A DNA stretch of 64,000 nt from a virus. The DNA is taken from the IMG/VR virus record IMGVR_UViG_3300031576_000007, positions 1 to 64,000 of that record; one strand, 5' to 3'. Of the stretch, positions 5,671 to 37,546 are shown piece after piece. Within the stretch, counting starts at the first letter, position 1. Each line of letters begins with the position of its first letter. The notes under the pieces are model-generated. The model was not told where the DNA came from and did not search any database. It saw only the letters and a list, made by a program, of their open reading frames with translations. The translations under genes were made by a program, and so were the position numbers.

Positions 5671-6430
5671 AGAAAGAAAAAGTGGAGAGGCAAAGAAGAC
5701 TCTAAAAGAGATTAGAAAACTAGATAAAGAAATAATAGCGGAAAGGTTATTAAAAAAAGTAGCGACTCTCTTAAATATTAAATTTGAACTTTTGGTAAAG
5801 TATATTCATGATCTGAGAGGGGATATGATAAACTAGATGATTACTAAAGAAACAACATTCAAGATAAAAAATATTCATCAGACTTTATTGTTTAAAGTAA
5901 ATGAATATTCTGAGGTTACTATGTATAAAGTTACCAATGGTTATGAAAATTTTATCTTGGCCACAAATATAAAAACATTAGAAGAAATATTAGATAAATT
6001 GAAGGGGGCTATACAATGAGAGGTATCGTAGTATCAAAAGAAGAGATACAAAGAGTTTTATATGGTAAAGCTGCTGTTCACGAGATTAAAAGAGTAAGAT
6101 TGTTTGTTGTCAGGAATTTGTACACAAGACCAGGAGATGATATACTAATAAGAATTAAGCAAGCTATGATTGACGCTGGGATGTGGCACTCAATTAAACG
6201 AGGACGGAAAGAAACTGTAACTAAAACACTGGAAGAAGTGAGAAAAATACTTCCATGAAAGGAGATAAAAAATGATTTTATGTTTTGGGTTATGTCCATT
6301 TGAATGGGTTCTCATAGGGCTATCAGCATTAGGATTGTGGAATCTTAAAAAGTAATGAATAATTTTCTGTCAGTTCTGTATGATTTATTGATTGACGGTT
6401 GGTATACGTTTATTTTATAGATAAACAAGA

Positions 6431-7444: not shown

Positions 7445-7650
7445 AGTTGACTTTAACTTCAATATATATTAATATATATACTTATATTAACTGATATTCT
7501 ATATTAACATATACTCTACATTAACTAATATTAAATTAACTACTAAATTAAAATATGTTGAACTATATAAGGCTCATTATTATCAGTTAACTACCGCCTA
7601 TATTAATATATATAGCGAAATATTCGGGAGTATTTCCCAAAATGGGAACT
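7445..7650. repeat. AT-rich, G-poor non-coding segment with periodic TTAAC and a 16-bp direct repeat (candidate origin)
   Basis: TTAAC at 7453, 7487, 7504, 7521, 7536, 7587; TATATTAATATATATA at 7465 and 7599; TTCCCA-AAA-TGGGAA hairpin near 7634-7648. Confidence 0.5.
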
Positions 7651-8014
7651 TAGATTCTCAAAATAATCAAAGAAATATTATTAGGTATAATAATTATTGT
7701 CGTAAATTATAAGAAGATATTAAATGATAGCTAAGAAAGACTTAATAGATTTATGTTATTATGTAGGACATTGTAGAAATTCAAGAGTAGTTATGTGGGT
7801 TGAGGATAGACAAGTATTTATGTACATTAGAAGCAAGTTTGGGGTATATTTTCCTGAAACTATTAAACATCCTGATGATGAAAAAGTCTATGATGTATTC
7901 AGGCCATTTCATCGTATCGGTTTTGAGGATCTCTATGAAAAATTTAGGGAGATAACCACAATGGAAAAATATAAAGTTATTGACAGTGACTTCTAATTGT
8001 GAGATAAAAGAGAT

Positions 8015-10999: not shown

Positions 11000-11475
11000 A
11001 AAAGACAGAGTTAGAGAATATAACTAAAGAAACTTTCAAAGGACTACTTTCAATTCTTAAATCATCAAAAAACTTTATAGTAGGGGAAGCTCCTTTAGTT
11101 GCAAAAGAAATTGTATTAGCGGAAAGGGTGAGTAGTATATTTTGGGTTACTGGTTCTTTCTTGCTTATTTCATGTGGTTATTTGATATTATATTTCACTT
11201 TTACAAGTGAGGCAAAAGAAATGGGTTTAGTAGTAGGTATAGCGATTGGTATCATAGGACCAGCTACTTTAATTCACAATTTGTATAATCTTGTACTAAC
11301 TTTCGTAGCACCGCGAATTGTAATGAATAAACATGGTGATGGATTATGACTCTAGAAGACTTTGAAAAAGAGTTCAGAAATATTCTTAACGAAACCCATA
11401 ACTACGATGCTCTTAGAGATGAGATGGACGTGGAATATGCTGTAACAACTGCGTGGTTAGCATTTGGAAGGCTTA

Positions 11476-14046
11476 ATGTCAAAAGAATTGCAAAAGAAGA
11501 ATCAGACAAAAACAGAAATTGAAGTTCTCTTAACTGAATTTGAAAAAAAATATGAGGAAGCAAGAGAAAAGGCTAATAAATATTTAACTGCTGCTGTGTA
11601 TTCCTTACTTCAAAGTCATGCATTTATTGGTCACATACTTCAAATGCTAAACAGAAAAATAGATATGTCTGTTCCTACTGCCGCAGTAGGGGTTATAAAT
11701 AATAAATACACCCTATTCATCAATCCATTTTTTTATTCTTCATTAACTATTGAAGAAGCCATAGCAATATTGCGTCATGAATGCTATCACCTTATTTGCG
11801 ATCATTTAAAACGAATAAAAGAATGTGACCCTAATATTTGGAGTATTGCATGTTTACCCGCTGGAGAACTAATTACTGGTGTTAATAAATGTATAGAACT
11901 AGTTTCTAATAATGAGATGGTACTATCTTCAAGCGGGTATACTAGAGTTTCTAATACTATGAATAGAAACTATTCAGGAAACTTATTTACAATTAAAGCA
12001 AGTGGTTGTTTACCAATAAGAGTAACAGATGAACATCCGATAAAAGTCAAAGAGAGGAAACAAATAAAAAAATACCCTATTATATTTTCTAAAGGAGAAG
12101 TTTGGAAAGAGGCGAATAAACTAAGAGAAAAAGTTGACTACGTATTAATTCCAAAACTTAAAGGCAATACAAATATAGATAAAATTAATTTAGATGAGTT
12201 TATTATGCACTCTTCAATTAACAGAACAGAAATATCTAATAGATGTATGATTAGAGAGCTTAAGGTTGATAATGATTTAGCTTGGATATTAGGTTTATAC
12301 ACCGCTGAAGGAAGTAGAGCAACAAAAAATAACAATAGCTTAGATTTTTCTTTATCTTCTAAAGAAACAAATCTTCACGATAATATAAAAACTTATTTTT
12401 CAAATTTAGGATACAGCGTTAGATGTTATATTAGAAATAATAGTGCTAAAGTTACCGCTCAGTCTACAATACTCTCAAGAGCATTTGAAAAATGGTGTGG
12501 TAAAGGCGCTCACAATAAAAAAATTCCAGATTTCATTTTGAACCATAATGATCTTTCACTAGTTAAGTCTTTTATTGATGGGTATATAGAAGGTGATGGG
12601 TGTTATAAGAAACGAGATAGTTTTTTAAGTGGAACAGTAAGTAAAACGCTGGCTTTACAATTACAGCTATCATATGCTAGAATGGGGAAATTTGCTTCTG
12701 TTAGACAATCAAACAGAGGCGAACGATTATTAAGAGGCAAAATTCTTAAACCATACACTATTTTTGAGATAGAATATATACCTATTCATTCAAGCAAAAG
12801 ATTATTTAAAAATTATACTATAAAAAGTACAAACCATAGATGGAAAGATTTTGGTAATTATTTAGGTGTACCAATTACTTCTATTACTAGCACCCCTTTT
12901 AATGGTAGAGTTTATAATTTAGAAACAGAATCACACGAGTTTGCAGTTAGTAATTTAATCACTCACAACTGTGATATGGCAATAAATATTTTTATCCCCA
13001 ATCTGCCAAAATTTGATCACAAAACGGCGGTAGAAGATGGAATGAAGAGACACGGACTATTAGAAGAAGATATGAAGAAACATTTACCAAAACCGGATAT
13101 GGACGGTAAATGTACCTCTGCTCTTTTACCTAGACATTTTAATATGCCAGATGGTAGAACTGCTGAATGGTATTATAAAACTATAATGAATGACCCAAAA
13201 TTAAGAGATAAATTTAAATCTAAGAAGATATTAATAAAAGTATACGAACCTAATGAAGAAAATAATAGTGGGAGTAAAGAAAACCCACAAAGCCTGAAAG
13301 ATCAATTAGATAGTGGAAGAGCTATTTTGGATGTACAAAGTGATGGTGACCACAATAAATGGCAACAATGCCAGGCGCACTCTCAGCAATTGATAGATGA
13401 AGAGTTAAAAAGGATTATAAGAGAGGCAAAAGACTTAGCTCCAAAAAGCTTTTCTACTCTTCCAGGGGATATGGTAAGCACAATACAAAACTTTCTAAAA
13501 AGTAAAAATAATTGGAAAGGAGTATTAAGATCTTGGATTCAACGCGCTACTGAAGTTCTAAGAGTTAATACAAGAAAAAGACCTTCTAGGAGATATGGGA
13601 TTATTTACCCAGGTCAACGTTCAGATTTTAGGTTAAATTTATCTGTGGTTGCTGACTCTAGTGGTTCTATCTCAGATAAAGATCTAGCTCTTATGGGGGG
13701 TGAAATAAATAGATTATTCGAAACAAAGATGGCTAACATAACTGTAATCGTAGGTGATTATGTTGTACAAAAAGTAACCAAAATGACCAAACTACTTACT
13801 CCAAAAGATTTTAAGTTCCCAGGAAGGGGAGGGACAAATGCTCAACCATGGTTAGAGGAAGCTGACAAACAAAACGCTGACGCTGTTATAATATTAACTG
13901 ACGGTGAATTTGATTATAAGCTAAAACGACCAAAATGCTTGGTGTTGTGGGCTCTAACGACTCGGGGAATTGAAGAGGAGAATTTTAAATCAAGAGTCCC
14001 ATTCGGGAAAGTTATAAAACTTTCACAAGAGGAAAAAAATGGCTAA
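11476..14046 (+). CDS. HEXXH metallopeptidase-like plus VWA domain protein (MoxR partner), intein-containing
   Basis: HECYH; WSIA|intein|CDMAIN; MIDAS DSSGS, GGT, LTDG. Confidence 0.85.
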   Translation: MSKELQKKNQTKTEIEVLLTEFEKKYEEAREKANKYLTAAVYSLLQSHAFIGHILQMLNRKIDMSVPTAAVGVINNKYTLFINPFFYSSLTIEEAIAILRHECYHLICDHLKRIKECDPNIWSIACLPAGELITGVNKCIELVSNNEMVLSSSGYTRVSNTMNRNYSGNLFTIKASGCLPIRVTDEHPIKVKERKQIKKYPIIFSKGEVWKEANKLREKVDYVLIPKLKGNTNIDKINLDEFIMHSSINRTEISNRCMIRELKVDNDLAWILGLYTAEGSRATKNNNSLDFSLSSKETNLHDNIKTYFSNLGYSVRCYIRNNSAKVTAQSTILSRAFEKWCGKGAHNKKIPDFILNHNDLSLVKSFIDGYIEGDGCYKKRDSFLSGTVSKTLALQLQLSYARMGKFASVRQSNRGERLLRGKILKPYTIFEIEYIPIHSSKRLFKNYTIKSTNHRWKDFGNYLGVPITSITSTPFNGRVYNLETESHEFAVSNLITHNCDMAINIFIPNLPKFDHKTAVEDGMKRHGLLEEDMKKHLPKPDMDGKCTSALLPRHFNMPDGRTAEWYYKTIMNDPKLRDKFKSKKILIKVYEPNEENNSGSKENPQSLKDQLDSGRAILDVQSDGDHNKWQQCQAHSQQLIDEELKRIIREAKDLAPKSFSTLPGDMVSTIQNFLKSKNNWKGVLRSWIQRATEVLRVNTRKRPSRRYGIIYPGQRSDFRLNLSVVADSSGSISDKDLALMGGEINRLFETKMANITVIVGDYVVQKVTKMTKLLTPKDFKFPGRGGTNAQPWLEEADKQNADAVIILTDGEFDYKLKRPKCLVLWALTTRGIEEENFKSRVPFGKVIKLSQEEKNG
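11851..12969 (+). mobile_element. intein (373 aa) with LAGLIDADG endonuclease
   Basis: C1 (CLPAGE), TDEHP block B, LGLYTAEGS and FIDGYIEGDG, THN|C. Confidence 0.9.
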
Positions 14047-33063: not shown

Positions 33064-35895
33064 ATGTCTTATCCTTTTAGAAATGAACTATCAGAATTCG
33101 TGTTCTATCGGACCTATGCGAGGTGGTTAGATAGAGAAAAACGAAGAGAAACTTGGGATGAAGTTACAGAAAGATATTTTAACAATGTAATAAATAAGCA
33201 TAAGGACACAGTTCCTAGAAAGATACAGGCAGAAATAAAAGATAATATTTTTAAAATGGCTTCCATGCCCTCTATGAGAGGGTTGTGGTGTGCTGGTCCA
33301 GCTCTAGATATATCGAATGTGTGCTTGTTTAATTGCTCATATTTGCCTATAAAAGATTTATTTTCATTTGCTGAAATGTTGTATATACTATGCTGCGGGA
33401 CAGGTGTAGGTTTTAGTGTGGAAGAAGAAAACATAACCCAACTTCCTGAAATACAGAGACAAACTAGTGCAGGTGCAGGAATACACGAGGTTGAAGATTC
33501 TAAAGAAGGATGGGCGGATTCTTTAATGGCTGGTCTAGAAACGTGGTTTTCAGGTAAAGATATAGAATTTAATTATGATAAAATAAGACCTAGAGGGGCT
33601 AGACTGATAACATTCGGGGGCAGAGCTTCAGGCCCAGAACCTTTAAAGAGACTTCATGAATTTTCAAAAAAGATTATACTAGAAGCCCAAGGTAGAAAAC
33701 TAACCAGTCTTGAATGTCATGATATATGTTGTAAAATTGCCGAAATCGTTGTAGTTGGTGGGGTGAGACGTTCAAGCCTAGCAAGTTTTAGCGATTTAAA
33801 TGACGAGTTACTAATGAAAGCTAAAAATCCTCCTTTTCCTTCTCATAGGTATATGAGTAATAATTCTGCTGTCTACACTAAAAAACCAGATAGTGTTACT
33901 TTCATGAGAGAGTGGTATAATTTGGCGGCATCTGGGACAGGGGAACGGGGTATATATAATATACCTAATTTAAGTAATTATGCACCTAGAAGAATTTTTA
34001 CAGGTAAGGAGAGAAGCAATCCTTGTTTCGAAATTATATTGAAGCCATTCGAATTTTGTGTAGCCGGGGATACTCCTTTGATTCACAAAACAGGTATTTT
34101 AAATATTAAGAATGCTGTAAACAAGCCCATAGAAATATGGAATGGAGAAAAATGGAGCTTAGTAACTGTACGTAGAACCAGAAGGGACCAAAAACTAGTA
34201 CGAGTAACCTTAACTGATGGTTCTTACTTAGACTGCACTCCAGATCATAGGTTTTCAGTTAAAACAAGATTTATGAAATATTTTAAAGAAGTTCCTGCAA
34301 GTAGACTATTAAATAGCGATTATTCTTTACAATGTGAAAATTTTTCAATAGATAATATAGGAGGAATTAGAGCAGAAGACGCATATGATATTGGATTCTC
34401 CGTTGGGGACGGTTTTATACAAAAAAATATGGTGTATGCTAACTTATATGGAGAAAAAGATAAAAAATGCCCAATTAAGGGGATTCGTTATAAAGAATAT
34501 CTTCCTAAAGGATATAGTGTGTCTAAAATAAGAATTAAAACAGGTTTAGACGCTACACTCATTTCTTCGCTTAAAACAGATTCTAATGCTAGTGATATTT
34601 TATTTACATGGGATAGGCCCTCTGTTTTGAAATTTATAGCTGGTTTAGCTGACGCTGATGGATCAGAAACAAAAACAGGTGGCATACGCATTTATATAAG
34701 TGACGAAAAAAGAGTACGAAAGTTTCAACTTCTATTAACTAAAAATGGTATTAGATCTTCTGTTAATCTTTTACAGAAAAAAGGAACCAGAACCAATTTA
34801 TCAGTCCGTAAAAAAGATTTATGGTACTTACAGATTACAGAGTGCAATGAAATTCCTTGTTTTAGATTAGATACTTCGGGGGGGCATAAAACTAAATATA
34901 AAGGAAAATACCAAAATATAAAATCAGTTGTTTTATTGAGGGGGTTACATGATACATATTGTTTTAATGAACCAGAAAAACACAAAGGAGTATTTTCAAA
35001 TGTGTTAACCTATCAATGTAATCTATCAGACGTTGTTGTAAGGGCATCAGATTCATTTGATGATTTGGTAGATAAGGTTAGAGCAGCTACTTGGATCTGC
35101 GCTATCCAATCAACTTTTACTAATTTTAAATATATACGATCAGAATGGAAAAGCAACTGTGACGAAGAAAGGCTACTTGGGGTTTCATTAACAGGCCAGT
35201 TAGATAATCCAAAACTACTTAGCGAGGAAAAATTACAGATATTGAAAGAATATTCTATAAAAACAGCTAAAAAAGCAGCGGAAGCACTAAAGATAAATTT
35301 ATCGGCAGCTATAACAACAACCAAACCAAGTGGCACTGTTTCTCAATTAGTTGATTCAGCATCAGGGTGTCATCCAAGATACTCTAAATTTTATACAAGA
35401 AGGGTACGAATTTCTGATACAGATCCTTTATTTAAAATGATGAGAGCGCAGGGGGTCAAATTTGAACCAGAAGTAGATCAGGACCCTAAAAATCCGGATA
35501 CCTGGGTAGTCTCTTTTCCTGTTAAATCACCTAAAAATTCTATAACTAGGGATGAGATGACGGCTATTGAACAACTTAACTGGTATAGGAAACTTCAAAA
35601 TAATTGGTCTGAGCATAATAATAGTGTTACAATTTATGTAAAAGAAAACGAATGGCCAGAAGTCGGATCATATGTTTATAAACATTTTGATGAAATAGTT
35701 GGGGTAAGTTTTTTACCTTATGATGGTGGTAAATATAAATTGGCTCCTTATGAAATGATAACTGAAGAGGAATATAACAAAAATAAGGAAAAATTCCCAA
35801 AAATAAATTATTCTGACCTTTATAAGTATGAGGAAGAAGATAATACTGAAGGAGCTAAATCATACGCTTGTATAGGAGATCGTTGCGAGATATGA
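33064..35895 (+). CDS. nrdJ: class II (AdoCbl) ribonucleotide reductase, intein-containing
   Basis: RTYAR, FNC, GRASGP, VGGVRRS, SNPCFE, CNL, KPSGTVS, C-terminal ACIGDRCEI. Confidence 0.9.
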   Translation: MSYPFRNELSEFVFYRTYARWLDREKRRETWDEVTERYFNNVINKHKDTVPRKIQAEIKDNIFKMASMPSMRGLWCAGPALDISNVCLFNCSYLPIKDLFSFAEMLYILCCGTGVGFSVEEENITQLPEIQRQTSAGAGIHEVEDSKEGWADSLMAGLETWFSGKDIEFNYDKIRPRGARLITFGGRASGPEPLKRLHEFSKKIILEAQGRKLTSLECHDICCKIAEIVVVGGVRRSSLASFSDLNDELLMKAKNPPFPSHRYMSNNSAVYTKKPDSVTFMREWYNLAASGTGERGIYNIPNLSNYAPRRIFTGKERSNPCFEIILKPFEFCVAGDTPLIHKTGILNIKNAVNKPIEIWNGEKWSLVTVRRTRRDQKLVRVTLTDGSYLDCTPDHRFSVKTRFMKYFKEVPASRLLNSDYSLQCENFSIDNIGGIRAEDAYDIGFSVGDGFIQKNMVYANLYGEKDKKCPIKGIRYKEYLPKGYSVSKIRIKTGLDATLISSLKTDSNASDILFTWDRPSVLKFIAGLADADGSETKTGGIRIYISDEKRVRKFQLLLTKNGIRSSVNLLQKKGTRTNLSVRKKDLWYLQITECNEIPCFRLDTSGGHKTKYKGKYQNIKSVVLLRGLHDTYCFNEPEKHKGVFSNVLTYQCNLSDVVVRASDSFDDLVDKVRAATWICAIQSTFTNFKYIRSEWKSNCDEERLLGVSLTGQLDNPKLLSEEKLQILKEYSIKTAKKAAEALKINLSAAITTTKPSGTVSQLVDSASGCHPRYSKFYTRRVRISDTDPLFKMMRAQGVKFEPEVDQDPKNPDTWVVSFPVKSPKNSITRDEMTAIEQLNWYRKLQNNWSEHNNSVTIYVKENEWPEVGSYVYKHFDEIVGVSFLPYDGGKYKLAPYEMITEEEYNKNKEKFPKINYSDLYKYEEEDNTEGAKSYACIGDRCEI
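34057..35016 (+). mobile_element. intein (320 aa) with LAGLIDADG endonuclease and C-terminal Gln
   Basis: CVAGDT, CTPDHRF, FIAGLADADGS, LTYQ|CNL. Confidence 0.9.
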
Positions 35896-36401
35896 TAGCT
35901 GATTTTATAAAAAACTGGTGTGAAAAGCACAGTAGAAAGTTTATTATCTACGACCGAGCGCAAGGAAGTAAACAAGTATATCTTATTAGATATGTTATCT
36001 TCAAATGTAAGTGGTTTGGTGTATATTTACACGAGTTTTTTAAGTCTGATGAAGAAGTACTTCATGATCACCCTTGGGATTTCGTTACTTTAATTCTAAA
36101 AGGCTCTTATAAAGAAGAAATTTTAAGTAAAGAAAAAAAACGTTGGACTTCTGTTTACGGATGGATAAAAAAATTTAGAACTGTAAAAAAGGGTCAATTT
36201 TTATTTAGGAAAGCTAAACATATACACAGAGTTATTTTAACTGATAATAACCCAATAACTTTAAGCGTACTATTTAGGAAAAAAAGAGAATGGGGGTTCT
36301 GGGAACCGATTCCAACAGCTGAATTCCACCTACAAAACTACAAATGGAAACATTGGCGTGATTTTTTAAATATTAAAACTGGTGAAAATAAAAAACAATG
36401 A
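35892..36401 (+). CDS. cupin-like phage protein
   Basis: YLHEF..SD...HDHPW...GSYKEE...HRV...WGF. Confidence 0.65.
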   Translation: MIADFIKNWCEKHSRKFIIYDRAQGSKQVYLIRYVIFKCKWFGVYLHEFFKSDEEVLHDHPWDFVTLILKGSYKEEILSKEKKRWTSVYGWIKKFRTVKKGQFLFRKAKHIHRVILTDNNPITLSVLFRKKREWGFWEPIPTAEFHLQNYKWKHWRDFLNIKTGENKKQ

Positions 36402-36847
36402 ACAGAAAACTAGATAGATTTTTGGTAAAGAGATTCCAGTCTATATTTGCCCAGAGATATCAAGATATGACTACCACTGCTATGTGCTGGGGCTTCATGT
36501 GTGGTGATGGTTGGGCAAGGCTCATATATGATCTTTGCTTAAAGATAGAACTTCTAGAAAAGACTTTCGGTATAGTAATTGAAGCTAGTCAGGTTAAGGA
36601 GAAGTATGGGCTATTGTGTTTTTATGTGTATTCGGATTATACTAAAGTTTCTAATGCGAAGCTTGGTAAAATGTTATGCAGTATGGTTAGTGATTTGATT
36701 TGTTCTGCGGAAGATAGAAGTGGTCAGTTGTGCGAAGTTTGCGGGGATTACGGGCAGGTTTACCCAGGTAGCTGGATTGTAACGAGGTGCGAGGATTGTG
36801 CTTTAGAAGAAGGTAGGGTTCTTGTGGATGAAAGCGAGCTACCATAA
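36398..36847 (+). CDS. conserved phage hypothetical protein
   Basis: CGDGW...QVKEKYG...CEVCG motif family. Confidence 0.7.
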   Translation: MNRKLDRFLVKRFQSIFAQRYQDMTTTAMCWGFMCGDGWARLIYDLCLKIELLEKTFGIVIEASQVKEKYGLLCFYVYSDYTKVSNAKLGKMLCSMVSDLICSAEDRSGQLCEVCGDYGQVYPGSWIVTRCEDCALEEGRVLVDESELP

Positions 36848-36850
36848 GAT

Positions 36851-37146
36851 CTTATTGGGCTGTGTACCCAATAAGTGTAGTTACTAGTTAACCTATGAAA
36901 CTAGACGTTTTAAGGAAACGTAAATTCCTGTCGGCATTGGTAGTTGGCCCAAAACTAATTACCACAGATTTAACTACTGCATCGTCAGCCTACGCGAGGA
37001 CTGTAACGGTGGCTATGCTGAAATAGCGATGTTTTACTCTTTTCCATAGTGCTATACCGAGAAAGAGACGCCAGGTACGATATGATCAAAAGAAACTAGA
37101 CAAAATTTGTATGTCTAGCACATCTAACCCCGGATGCAGTAATTAA
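36851..37146. ncRNA. putative structured non-coding RNA of unassigned family
   Basis: ORF-free, GC-enriched, at least 8 stems including a 14-bp long-range helix 36970-36983/37133-37146 with one mismatch. Confidence 0.55.
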
Positions 37147-37214
37147 TATTGAAATCAATAAGTTATAAAACCGTGCTTTACTATAAACTATAAACTATCA
37201 ACTAAAGAAATTAA

Positions 37215-37244
37215 ATGACTTTACCTAATAAAGTGTGGTATAAT
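37215..37244 (+). promoter_or_regulatory. sigma70 extended -10 promoter
   Basis: ATGACT-18 bp-TATAAT with TGn, followed by an AAGGA RBS. Confidence 0.6.
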
Positions 37245-37255
37245 AAGGAATATAA

Positions 37256-37546
37256 ATACCAAACATAAAACTAATAGAGGACAAACAATTTAAAATTTTA
37301 AGGATATTATGTAGTTGTCTAGCCCCAGAGCACACATATGACATAATAGTTGATAAAGAATTTGGTTTCACAGAGATCGCTCATAATTTAAATAAAGATC
37401 TAAATGAGCCATGTCTTAGTAGATTAAAAAATGCATTCAAGTATGTTTTAGGAAAATCATTATTGGTTTCAGGACTTGTCTTAGAAAAAGAAGATGTAGA
37501 GGAAATGATTAAGTTCTTACAAGAAAATGTAAAAGGTATGAAATGA
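37256..37546 (+). pseudogene. 96-aa phage protein with ATA in place of the start codon
   Basis: promoter, AAGGA RBS, then ATA; CSCLAPEH...RLKNAFKYVLG family-like motif; TGA overlaps the next ATG. Confidence 0.6.

What the first reader, a model, noticed from the sequence alone, without database searches (positions are those of the whole stretch)
36851..37146. Unassigned ~300-nt densely structured non-coding element
Seen: a long ORF-free stretch, GC-richer than its flanks, tiled almost end to end with stems. These include CTTATTGGG/CCCAATAAG (36851-75), CTAGTT/AACTAG (36884-904), ACGTTTT/GAAACGT (36905-21) and TGGTAGTTGG/CTAATTACCA (36938-64, two G-U pairs). A 14-bp helix (36970-83/37133-46) closes a ~150-nt multibranch domain containing CAGCCT/AGG-A-CTG, GCTAT/ATAGC, GATGT/ACATC, CTCTTTT/GAAAGAG and CTAGACA/TGTCTAG. 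It sits between the end of the RNR gene run and a new sigma70 promoter. I could not match it to tRNA, tmRNA, RNase P, SRP, 6S, hammerhead or common riboswitch signatures. Inference: a new phage ncRNA (ribozyme, decoy or regulator) or a structured ssDNA element. The strand is ambiguous because wobble-compatible pairs occur on both.
Basis: partly seen in the sequence, partly recalled or inferred. Interest (0 to 1): 0.8.

Follow-up and report, generated by a model that had tools for sequence, protein, structure and literature searches.

The report
New structured RNA beside phage tRNAs
The 3' half of this gene-free stretch (36975-37141, + strand) encodes a folded RNA of a previously uncatalogued family that two related uncultured phages carry directly after a tRNA gene; its fold is well supported by compensatory mutations but its job is unknown, and the 5' half of the flagged stretch has no support beyond its own hairpins.

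Summary
Only the 3' domain (36975-37141, + strand) is a demonstrable element.

- **Homologs.** They lie at the syntenic place in two related uncultured phages: L009:11394-11567, 3 nt after tRNA-Ile, and L184:5792-5911, 7 nt after tRNA-Met.
- **Fold.** Across the three sequences, 29 base pairs in five helices are 96.6% paired (40-47% in slid controls), and 16 pairs change on both sides.
- **Independent test.** A model built from the window and L009 alone finds L184 at E 1e-13 with every pair intact.
- **Strand.** Ten G-U cells against one A-C cell point to the + strand.
- **Conserved unpaired bases.** CGU, the ACGCG loop, UAA, GUUU, UCC and ACG sit around a cloverleaf-like four-way junction.
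- **No known family.** Rfam gives no match, and neither do tRNA or tmRNA searches.
- **Folding energy.** It is uninformative: z is +0.05 to -1.5 on the supported + strand in all three.
- **5' part.** The hairpins at 36851-36969 are not conserved.

Best reading: a new small RNA linked to tRNA operons, like T4 rnaC/rnaD in position. Its function is inferred only. Earlier scan notes describe other unnamed RNAs in phage tRNA clusters on other DNA, but not this sequence.

The parts
36975..36982 (+). P1, 5' strand (TACTGCAT). It pairs with 37134-37141. In this phage only, the helix extends outward to 36970/37146 with one C-A mismatch.
   Evidence: 8 pairs, 100% paired in 3 sequences, 4 pairs changed on both sides in L184. 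The inverted repeat is listed.
36983..36985 (+). P1b, 5' strand (invariant CGT). It pairs with 37029-37031 (ATG here, GCG in both relatives) and stacks directly on P1.
   Evidence: 3 pairs, all 9 cells paired. The window's two changes (G-C to G-U, U-G to U-A) keep pairing. There is no change on both sides, so this is the weakest helix.
36986..37003 (+). P2 hairpin: 3 bp, a bulged A (37000), 3 bp, and the invariant loop ACGCG (36992-36996).
   Evidence: 4 of 6 pairs change on both sides. The loop is identical in all three sequences, and L184 has the same bulged A.
37004..37006 (+). Invariant unpaired TAA after P2.
   Evidence: Identical in the window, L009 and L184.
37007..37028 (+). Variable P3 region. 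The local hairpin is GCTAT (37012-16) / ATAGC (37023-27) here and TGCCG/CGGCG in L009; it is unclear in L184. It contains an invariant GG (37011-37012).
   Evidence: Read. The pairing is not resolved with three sequences.
37032..37036 (+). Junction TTTTA (GTTT is conserved when the preceding G is counted).
   Evidence: Conserved block.
37037..37067 (+). P4 hairpin: 7 bp (37037-43 with 37061-67), an invariant U-G closing pair, and a 17-18-nt loop that begins with invariant CC (37044-37045), which with the closing U reads UCC.
   Evidence: 100% paired, 5 of 7 pairs change on both sides, three different Watson-Crick pairs at two positions.
37068..37070 (+). Invariant unpaired ACG between P4 and P6.
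   Evidence: Identical in all three sequences.
37071..37133 (+). P6: 5 bp (37071-75 CCAGG with 37129-33 CCCGG, one A-C mismatch) that abuts the P1 3' strand with no spacer. It encloses a 53-nt insertion with hairpin P5 (37096-37102 / 37112-37118). L184 has only a 7-nt loop, UGAAAAU, here.
   Evidence: 3 of 5 pairs change on both sides (C-G, G-C and A-U at the outer pair), and two G-C pairs next to the loop are invariant. The first and fifth loop bases are U and A in all three.
37134..37141 (+). P1, 3' strand (ATGCAGTA).
36851..36969 (.). Four hairpins specific to this phage, between the stop codon of the 149-aa gene (36845-47) and the conserved RNA: 36851-75, 36884-904, 36905-21 and 36938-64. 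In the relatives this place is taken by tRNA genes and homing-endonuclease genes.
   Evidence: The hairpins are present. No homology to L009. No tRNA even at relaxed ARAGORN settings. It is not shown to belong to the conserved RNA.
37215..37244 (+). Promoter of the next transcription unit (ATGACT, 18 nt, TG-TATAAT). It marks the downstream limit of the unit that holds the RNA.
   Evidence: The homologous site in L009, 12056-12085, matches 12 of 12 with TG.

Best explanation
Window 36975-37141 (+ strand) is the gene of a small structured RNA of a family not in Rfam. It is 167 nt here, 174 nt in L009 and 120 nt in L184.

**Shown**
- The RNA folds into a four-way junction. P1 closes the molecule and stacks on P1b.
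- P1b holds a sub-domain made of the P2 hairpin (invariant ACGCG loop), UAA and a variable hairpin.
- P4 is a 7-bp hairpin with a large loop.
- P6 is a 5-bp helix that abuts the P1 3' strand. It carries either a 7-nt loop or a ~55-65-nt insertion.
- About 20 invariant unpaired bases cluster at the junction and loops.

**Inferred**
- The RNA belongs to the phage's tRNA transcription unit. In both relatives it starts 3-7 nt after the CCA of a tRNA gene on the same strand. In L184 the tRNA-Met and the RNA share one promoter.
- It is therefore probably made from the same precursor and freed by the host enzymes that trim tRNA ends.
- It then probably acts in trans through its conserved junction and loops, as a protein-binding RNA or a tRNA-like decoy. 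Phage T4's stable RNAs rnaC and rnaD sit at the 3' end of its tRNA cluster in the same way.
- In the window's phage the tRNA genes are absent but the RNA is kept, so its role does not depend on a neighbouring tRNA.

The confidence given is for the whole statement. That it is a real, conserved, + strand structured RNA of a new family I put at about 0.9. Co-transcription and processing with tRNAs I put at about 0.6. The trans-acting binder or decoy role I put at about 0.3.
For: **Homology at the syntenic place**
- The gene order (RNR, 177 aa, 149 aa, then 96 aa, 173 aa, nuclease) is shared with L009.
- nhmmer: window to L009 E 0.0065; L009 to the own genome E 5e-4, landing at 36974-37085.
- A two-sequence HMM hits L184 at E 8.6e-4, right after its tRNA-Met.

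**Structure**
- 29 pairs are 96.6% paired, against 40-47% when the partners are slid.
- 16 pairs change on both sides, and 0 of 500 shuffles reach the observed values on any of the five measures (for the 24-pair version).

**Leave-one-out test**
- Model R2, built from the window and L009 only, finds L184:5790-5913 at 65.4 bits (E 1.1e-13) with no non-standard pair. The next hit scores 11 bits.

**Strand**
- There are 10 G-U cells and 1 A-C cell on the + strand.
- Flanking genes and the abutting tRNAs are on the + strand, and GC skew is positive over the whole arm.

**Other points**
- Non-coding: no frame is open in all three, and the indels are not multiples of three.
- Not a known family: no Rfam match for the window, L009 or L184.
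- tRNA linkage: tRNA-Ile ends at L009:11390 and the RNA starts at 11394. tRNA-Met ends at L184:5784 and the RNA starts at 5792, with a TTGACA/TAGAAT promoter-like site read by eye just upstream of the tRNA at about 5677-5705.
- T4 layout: tRNA cluster with the homing endonuclease segB, then rnaD and rnaC.
- One copy per genome.
Against: - There are only three sequences, so covariation counts rest on few independent events and P1b, P3 and any tertiary contacts are unresolved.
- No expression data exist: no transcript, ends or processing sites are known.
- Folding energies on the + strand are ordinary (z -1.4, -1.5 and +0.05).
- The RNA has no encoded CCA, and the tRNA model does not match it, so 'tRNA-like' rests on topology alone.
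- The window's own phage has no tRNA next to it, so co-processing with a tRNA cannot be general.
- More distant relatives lack the RNA altogether: the whole records of L185 and L186. It is therefore dispensable.
- The trans-acting function is pure inference.
Confidence: 0.55

Rival explanations
1. It is a cis-acting self-cleaving ribozyme that cuts at or near its own 5' end and so trims the 3' trailer of the upstream tRNA, as proposed for the HDV-like theta ribozymes of gut phages.
For: - It starts 3-7 nt after the tRNA's CCA in two phages, one of them a tRNA-Met.
- Theta ribozymes lie within 5 nt of tRNAs, mostly tRNA-Met, suppressor tRNAs and tRNA-Leu (PMC10879173).
- Many invariant unpaired bases sit at a multi-helix junction, as is common in catalytic RNAs.
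Against: - The window's phage keeps the RNA without any tRNA.
- The helix order is not that of the HDV double pseudoknot: here the 5'-most strand pairs with the 3'-most strand. That comparison rests on my own knowledge of the HDV fold.
- No ribozyme family of Rfam matches even at E 10.
- At 120-175 nt it is far larger than my recollection of theta ribozymes (about 50-70 nt).
Confidence: 0.12
2. It is a cis-acting 3'-end module of the upstream early/nucleotide-metabolism operon: a compact fold that blocks 3' exonucleases or insulates that unit from the promoter at 37215-37244, with no trans function.
For: - It is the last feature before a conserved strong promoter once the mobile endonuclease genes of the relatives are set aside.
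- No promoter of its own was found in the window.
- U-rich runs follow P1 in L009 and L184.
Against: - No terminator-like site was found.
- A simple stabiliser would not need about 20 invariant unpaired bases and a conserved four-way junction.
- In L184 it lies in a short tRNA unit with its own promoter rather than at the end of a long operon.
Confidence: 0.15
3. It is a DNA-level element, such as a replication origin, a recombination or packaging site, or a homing-endonuclease target, whose hairpins form in single-stranded DNA.
For: - Homing-endonuclease genes sit next to it in both relatives.
- In the window the - strand folds better than shuffled sequence.
Against: - Ten G-U cells on the + strand would be A-C mismatches on the other strand.
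- The - strand z-score is not conserved: -0.31 in L009.
- GC skew shows no turn near 37 kb; the only switch is at 64 kb.
- The endonuclease genes belong to different families and are absent from the window.
Confidence: 0.04
4. For the 5' part only (36851-36969): the hairpins are incidental intergenic structure or the decayed remains of a tRNA cluster, not part of a functional RNA.
For: - There is no homolog in L009.
- In the relatives this place holds tRNA and endonuclease genes.
- The + strand z is only -2.19, and such inverted repeats are common in this AT-rich genome.
Against: - The hairpin at 36938-64 has 10 bp, and the - strand z is -4.17.
- No tRNA-like remnant could be shown.
Confidence: 0.6

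Closest known systems
Phage T4 small stable RNAs rnaC (species 1, 139 nt) and rnaD (species 2, 119 nt)
   Same: - Both are non-tRNA structured RNAs of 120-175 nt at the 3' end of a phage tRNA gene cluster, on the same strand and a few bases after the last tRNA.
- In both cases homing-endonuclease genes sit in the cluster.
- The function of both is unknown.
   Different: - There is no sequence or model match: R2 finds nothing in the T4 region.
- T4 rnaC ends in a canonical T arm, CCGGGTTCGAATCCCGG, which this RNA lacks.
- The window's phage has the RNA without any tRNA.
tRNA (Rfam RF00005): cloverleaf topology only
   Same: - It is a four-way junction whose closing helix (8 bp) is followed on the 3' side, with no spacer, by a 5-bp helix ending in two G-C pairs.
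- In L184 that helix carries a 7-nt loop. The first and fifth loop bases are U and A in all three, as in a T loop.
- It is encoded in tRNA gene clusters.
   Different: - The tRNA model and ARAGORN do not match it.
- It has no CCA and no 7-nt anticodon loop (the P4 loop is 17-18 nt).
- The 'D arm' is a whole sub-domain, and it is 120-175 nt long.
HDV-like theta ribozymes next to phage tRNAs (Kienbeck et al. 2024, PMC10879173)
   Same: It lies directly 3' of phage tRNA genes, including tRNA-Met.
   Different: - The fold and size differ, and no Rfam HDV-like family matches.
- It is present in the window without a tRNA.
- Self-cleavage has not been tested.
Bacterial Y RNAs (YrlA) with a tRNA-like module
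   Same: Both have a long helix formed by the 5' and 3' ends that closes a multi-helix, tRNA-like domain. That description of YrlA rests on my own knowledge.
   Different: - The genome encodes no Ro/TROVE protein and no RtcB.
- No Rfam match was found.

Membership tests
Any Rfam 15 family (4227 models, including tRNA, tmRNA, RNase P, 6S, group I/II introns, HEARO, GOLLD, ROOL and the self-cleaving ribozymes) | A covariance-model score at or near the family's gathering threshold. | tested here: not met
   - No match in the whole window at gathering scores.
- No match at E up to 10 in 36700-37400.
- Nothing on the homologous stretches of L009 and L184 except the neighbouring tRNAs and noise.
tRNA | A cloverleaf with a 7-bp acceptor stem, D arm, 7-nt anticodon loop and T arm with a TTCRANY loop, detected by ARAGORN or RF00005. 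| tested here: not met
   - ARAGORN finds none in the window or the whole genome.
- With relaxed settings it gives only spurious intron-containing calls on the other strand.
- RF00005 does not match.
- Only the four-way topology and a 5-bp helix abutting P1 resemble a tRNA.
HDV-like / theta ribozyme | A nested double pseudoknot in which the 5'-terminal strand (P1) pairs with an internal strand, with the cleavage site at the very 5' end. | tested here: not met
   - The covariation-supported P1 joins the 5' and 3' ends.
- An attempt by hand to map an HDV-like P1 onto the three sequences gave no conserved pairing.
- No Rfam HDV-like family matches.
HDV-like / theta ribozyme | Self-cleavage activity. 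| not testable with these tools
   This needs in vitro transcription and a cleavage assay.
T4-type stable RNAs of tRNA clusters (rnaC/rnaD) | Sequence or structure homology to T4 rnaC or rnaD. | tested here: not met
   R2 finds nothing at rnaC or rnaD; its only hit in the T4 locus is a 9-bit chance match at L183:803-819, outside them. The sequences differ on inspection.
T4-type stable RNAs of tRNA clusters (rnaC/rnaD) | Position at the 3' end of a phage tRNA cluster, on the same strand, abutting the last tRNA. | tested here: met
   Met in L009 (3-nt spacer after tRNA-Ile) and L184 (7 nt after tRNA-Met). Not met in the window itself, which has no tRNA.
T4-type stable RNAs of tRNA clusters (rnaC/rnaD) | A stable, processed RNA species in infected cells. 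| not testable with these tools
   No expression data exist for these uncultured phages.
Y RNA (YrlA) | A Ro/TROVE protein partner encoded nearby and a Ro-binding helix. | tested here: not met
   PF05731 (TROVE) and PF01139 (RtcB) are absent from the 112-kb genome.
Group I intron | Insertion in a gene with flanking exons, and a P3-P9 core. | tested here: not met
   - The upstream 149-aa protein is complete: its homologs end at the same place.
- The downstream 96-aa frame is a separate gene with its own promoter.
- RF00028 does not match.
- The L184 copy is only 120 nt.

The most novel reading that the evidence does not exclude
The RNA is a new class of tRNA-operon-borne functional RNA. One possibility is a new self-cleaving or otherwise catalytic fold that matures phage tRNA precursors. 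Another is a tRNA-shaped decoy that binds a host tRNA-targeting defence or tRNA-handling enzyme. The second would explain why a phage that has lost its tRNA genes still keeps the RNA.
Probability: 0.15. Interest if true: 0.8.

Novelty: new variant of a known kind. Interest (0 to 1): 0.5.

Why it matters
- Phage tRNA clusters have long been known to hold stable RNAs that are not tRNAs. T4 rnaC and rnaD have been known for decades, and I know of no assigned function for them.
- This is a further, unrelated family with an unusually clean fold: four helices proven by compensatory changes, and about 20 invariant unpaired bases at a four-way junction. That pattern is typical of RNAs that bind a specific partner or catalyse a reaction.
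- One member survives in a phage with no tRNA genes, so the RNA's role can be separated from that of the tRNAs.
- The family is small and of unknown function, so the immediate value is a defined, testable RNA gene and a covariance model for finding more members.

Tried and rejected
- **Intron with the flanking frames as exons.** I considered this because the downstream frame 37256-37545 has no ATG, GTG or TTG start. I rejected it because the 149-aa protein is full length in its homologs, and the downstream frame is a separate gene whose homolog in L009 starts with ATG just where the window has ATA.
- **Folding energy as evidence.** I rejected it: the - strand z-scores in the window are not reproduced in L009, and the + strand values are ordinary. 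The genome-wide scan is not an outlier either.
- **First MAFFT comparison with the L009 gap**. It aligned the wrong stretch; the true homolog lies 500 nt further on, after the tRNAs.
- **Exact-pattern scans.** ACTGCATCGTC...ACGCG gave 89 hits in viral contigs, all chance. The core pattern gave 0 viral and 5 genomic hits, all chance. The invariant-base pattern gave only L184 itself and one chance hit.
- **blastn against 50,697 phage records.** Only noise.
- **tblastn of the nuclease against those phage records.** Nothing.
- **Related loci via the nuclease alone.** None. With a 15-sequence alignment there were three viral records, and only L184 holds the RNA. None were found in genome contigs.
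- **Short direct and inverted repeats as iterons.** Nothing beyond chance.
- **Replication origin.** No skew turn near 37 kb.
- **Degenerate tRNA in 36876-36969.** Not demonstrable.
- **Tool limits.** The Logan, ENA and JGI contigs of further relatives (P0018-P0031) could therefore not be fetched.

Full report
**1. The observation**

- The stretch between the stop codon of a 149-aa gene (36845-47) and the next gene is non-coding. The longest ORF is 43 aa, and all six frames carry stops.
- It is richer in G+C (0.41-0.51) than the window as a whole (0.33).
- A promoter-like site with a TG-extended -10 lies at 37215-37244.
- Rfam gives nothing at gathering scores over the window, and nothing up to E 10 over 36700-37400. 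ARAGORN finds no tRNA or tmRNA.

**2. Is it more than chance?**

Folding energy cannot answer this.
- The whole 303 nt has z -2.07 on the + strand and -4.55 on the - strand.
- The 185-nt 3' domain has z -1.37 (+) and -4.08 (-).
- The 5' 125 nt has z -2.19 (+) and -4.17 (-).
- In a scan of the whole 112-kb genome with 200-nt windows, corrected for G+C, the region is unremarkable.
- The window holds 147 inverted repeats of 12 nt or more within 300 nt.

**3. Relatives**

- The window is the first 64 kb of a complete 112-kb phage record with terminal repeats. No cultured phage resembles it.
- The 149-aa protein has one closer relative (58% identity) on a metagenome contig, L009. L009 shares the gene order on both sides.
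- In L009 the corresponding gap holds an HNH endonuclease gene, tRNA-Met, an odd tRNA-Tyr-like gene, and tRNA-Asp, -Ala and -Ile.
- Three bases after tRNA-Ile comes a stretch that shares TACTGCATCGTC, a hairpin with the loop ACGCG, TAA, GTTTT, CTTTCC, ACG..AGGTA and the closing ATGCAGTA with window 36975-37141.
- nhmmer supports the homology in both directions: E 0.0065 and 5e-4.
- An alignment of the downstream nuclease with 14 database relatives retrieved three more phage records.
- In one of them, L184, a profile of the first two sequences hits at E 8.6e-4, directly after a tRNA-Met.
- The two more distant records lack it over their whole length. The window's genome has a single copy.

**4. 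The fold**

In the three-way alignment five helices are kept:

| Helix | Window coordinates | Support |
|---|---|---|
| P1, 8 bp | 36975-82 with 37134-41 | 4 pairs change on both sides |
| P1b, 3 bp | 36983-85 with 37029-31 | one-sided changes only, all consistent with pairing |
| P2, 3 bp + bulged A + 3 bp, loop ACGCG | 36986-37003 | 4 pairs change on both sides |
| P4, 7 bp | 37037-43 with 37061-67 | 5 pairs change on both sides; invariant U-G closing pair |
| P6, 5 bp | 37071-75 with 37129-33 | 3 pairs change on both sides |

- Overall, 96.6% of 87 cells pair, against 40-47% when the partners are slid by 1-3 columns.
- Sixteen of the 29 pairs change on both sides, and no shuffle in 500 reaches any of the observed values (for the 24-pair version).
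- Because the structure was read from these same sequences, I ran a leave-one-out test. A model built from the window and L009 alone finds L184:5790-5913 at 65.4 bits (E 1.1e-13) with no non-standard pair. The next hit scores 11 bits.
- P6 encloses 7 nt in L184, but 53-65 nt with an extra hairpin in the other two.
- The thermodynamic z-scores of the homologs are -1.47 (L009, +) and +0.05 (L184, +). This RNA would never be found by energy alone.

**5. Strand and coding**

- Ten cells are G-U on the + strand, which would be A-C on the other strand. Only one is A-C on the + strand.
- The abutting tRNAs and all neighbouring genes are on the + strand, and GC skew is positive up to 64 kb.
- No reading frame is open in all three copies.

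**6. What it is**

It is a small RNA gene of an uncatalogued family, tied to tRNA genes.
- In L184 a promoter-like site (TTGACA, 17 nt, TAGAAT), read by eye, is followed by tRNA-Met. The RNA comes 7 nt later, and an endonuclease VII-like ORF follows at once.
- In L009 the RNA closes a cluster of five tRNAs flanked by two HNH genes.
- This is the layout of T4's tRNA region: eight tRNAs, the homing endonuclease segB, then the stable RNAs rnaD and rnaC. Neither T4 RNA resembles this one.

The junction has the connectivity of a cloverleaf.
- P6 abuts P1 as a T arm abuts the acceptor stem.
- P6 has 5 bp, ends in two invariant G-C pairs, and carries a 7-nt loop in L184.
- No tRNA model matches, however, and there is no CCA. 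I therefore treat tRNA mimicry as a lead, not a finding.

**7. How it most likely works** (inferred)

- It is transcribed with the tRNAs. In the window it is transcribed by read-through from the RNR operon, because no promoter of its own was found.
- It is then cut free by the enzymes that trim tRNA precursors.
- It then acts in trans through its invariant junction and loops.
- The window's phage keeps it without tRNAs, which argues against a purely cis role in tRNA maturation.

Rivals:
- A self-cleaving ribozyme like the theta ribozymes that flank phage tRNAs (PMC10879173).
- A 3'-end stabiliser or insulator.
- A DNA-level site.
- For the 5' hairpins only: incidental structure or decayed tRNA genes.

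The genome encodes no Ro, RtcB or CCA-adding enzyme.

**8. Novelty**

- The sequence family is new to Rfam 15 and to the phage records searched.
- The kind of object, a stable structured RNA in a phage tRNA cluster, is known.
- Earlier notes of this scan describe other unnamed RNAs in phage tRNA clusters on other DNA. None shares this sequence.

**9. Limits**

- There are only three members.
- There are no expression data.
About a dozen further relatives seen at the protein level could therefore not be examined.

Noticed in passing
window 37256-37545 (+): A 96-codon frame is 41% identical to the L009 protein that starts with ATG at L009:12095, and it is related to L184:6575-6895. It has no ATG, GTG or TTG start: the codon aligned with the relative's ATG is ATA (37256), 6 nt after AAGGA and about 12 nt after the conserved TG-TATAAT. 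It is either a rare ATA start on a near-leaderless mRNA, a start-codon mutation, or a sequencing error.
   Followed up: partly
L009:11005-11091 (+): A class II tRNA-Tyr(GTA)-like gene that ARAGORN and Rfam miss. By eye it has a 6-bp acceptor stem, a D arm, the anticodon loop CTGTAAA, a long variable arm, a 5-bp T stem with an aberrant loop GGCAGTA, and an encoded ACCA end.
   Followed up: partly
L009:10882-11004 (+): A further ORF-free structured stretch between tRNA-Met and the tRNA-Tyr-like gene, closed by GCTTTAGG/CCTAAAGC. It has no tRNA or Rfam match and no counterpart in the window.
   Followed up: no
L009:10450-10836 and 11614-12069; L184:5918-6376 and 7547-8008: HNH and endonuclease VII-type genes, most likely free-standing homing endonucleases, flank the tRNA/RNA region in both relatives and are absent from the window. 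In L184 the P1 3' strand (AGGCAAGG) overlaps the likely ribosome-binding site of the endonuclease gene that starts 7 nt later.
   Followed up: partly
window 33064-35895 (+): The class II ribonucleotide reductase is 943 aa, with a LAGLIDADG-domain hit at residues 521-577. The relatives' RNRs have 550 and 623 aa, so this one carries an intein.
   Followed up: no
own genome 108601-108800, 84701-84900, 87001-87200 (outside the window): These are the strongest G+C-corrected folding-energy outliers of the genome (z -4.4, -3.5 and -3.3 on the + strand). ARAGORN finds no tRNA anywhere in the genome.
   Followed up: no
own genome, about 64 kb: GC skew flips from +0.2 to -0.15 at about 64 kb, so the genome has two convergent transcription arms.
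   Followed up: no
window 35868-36401 (+): The 177-aa protein upstream matches PHROG 4786, annotated as cysteine dioxygenase (E 4e-33). It has a homolog in L009 and perhaps one in L184.
   Followed up: no
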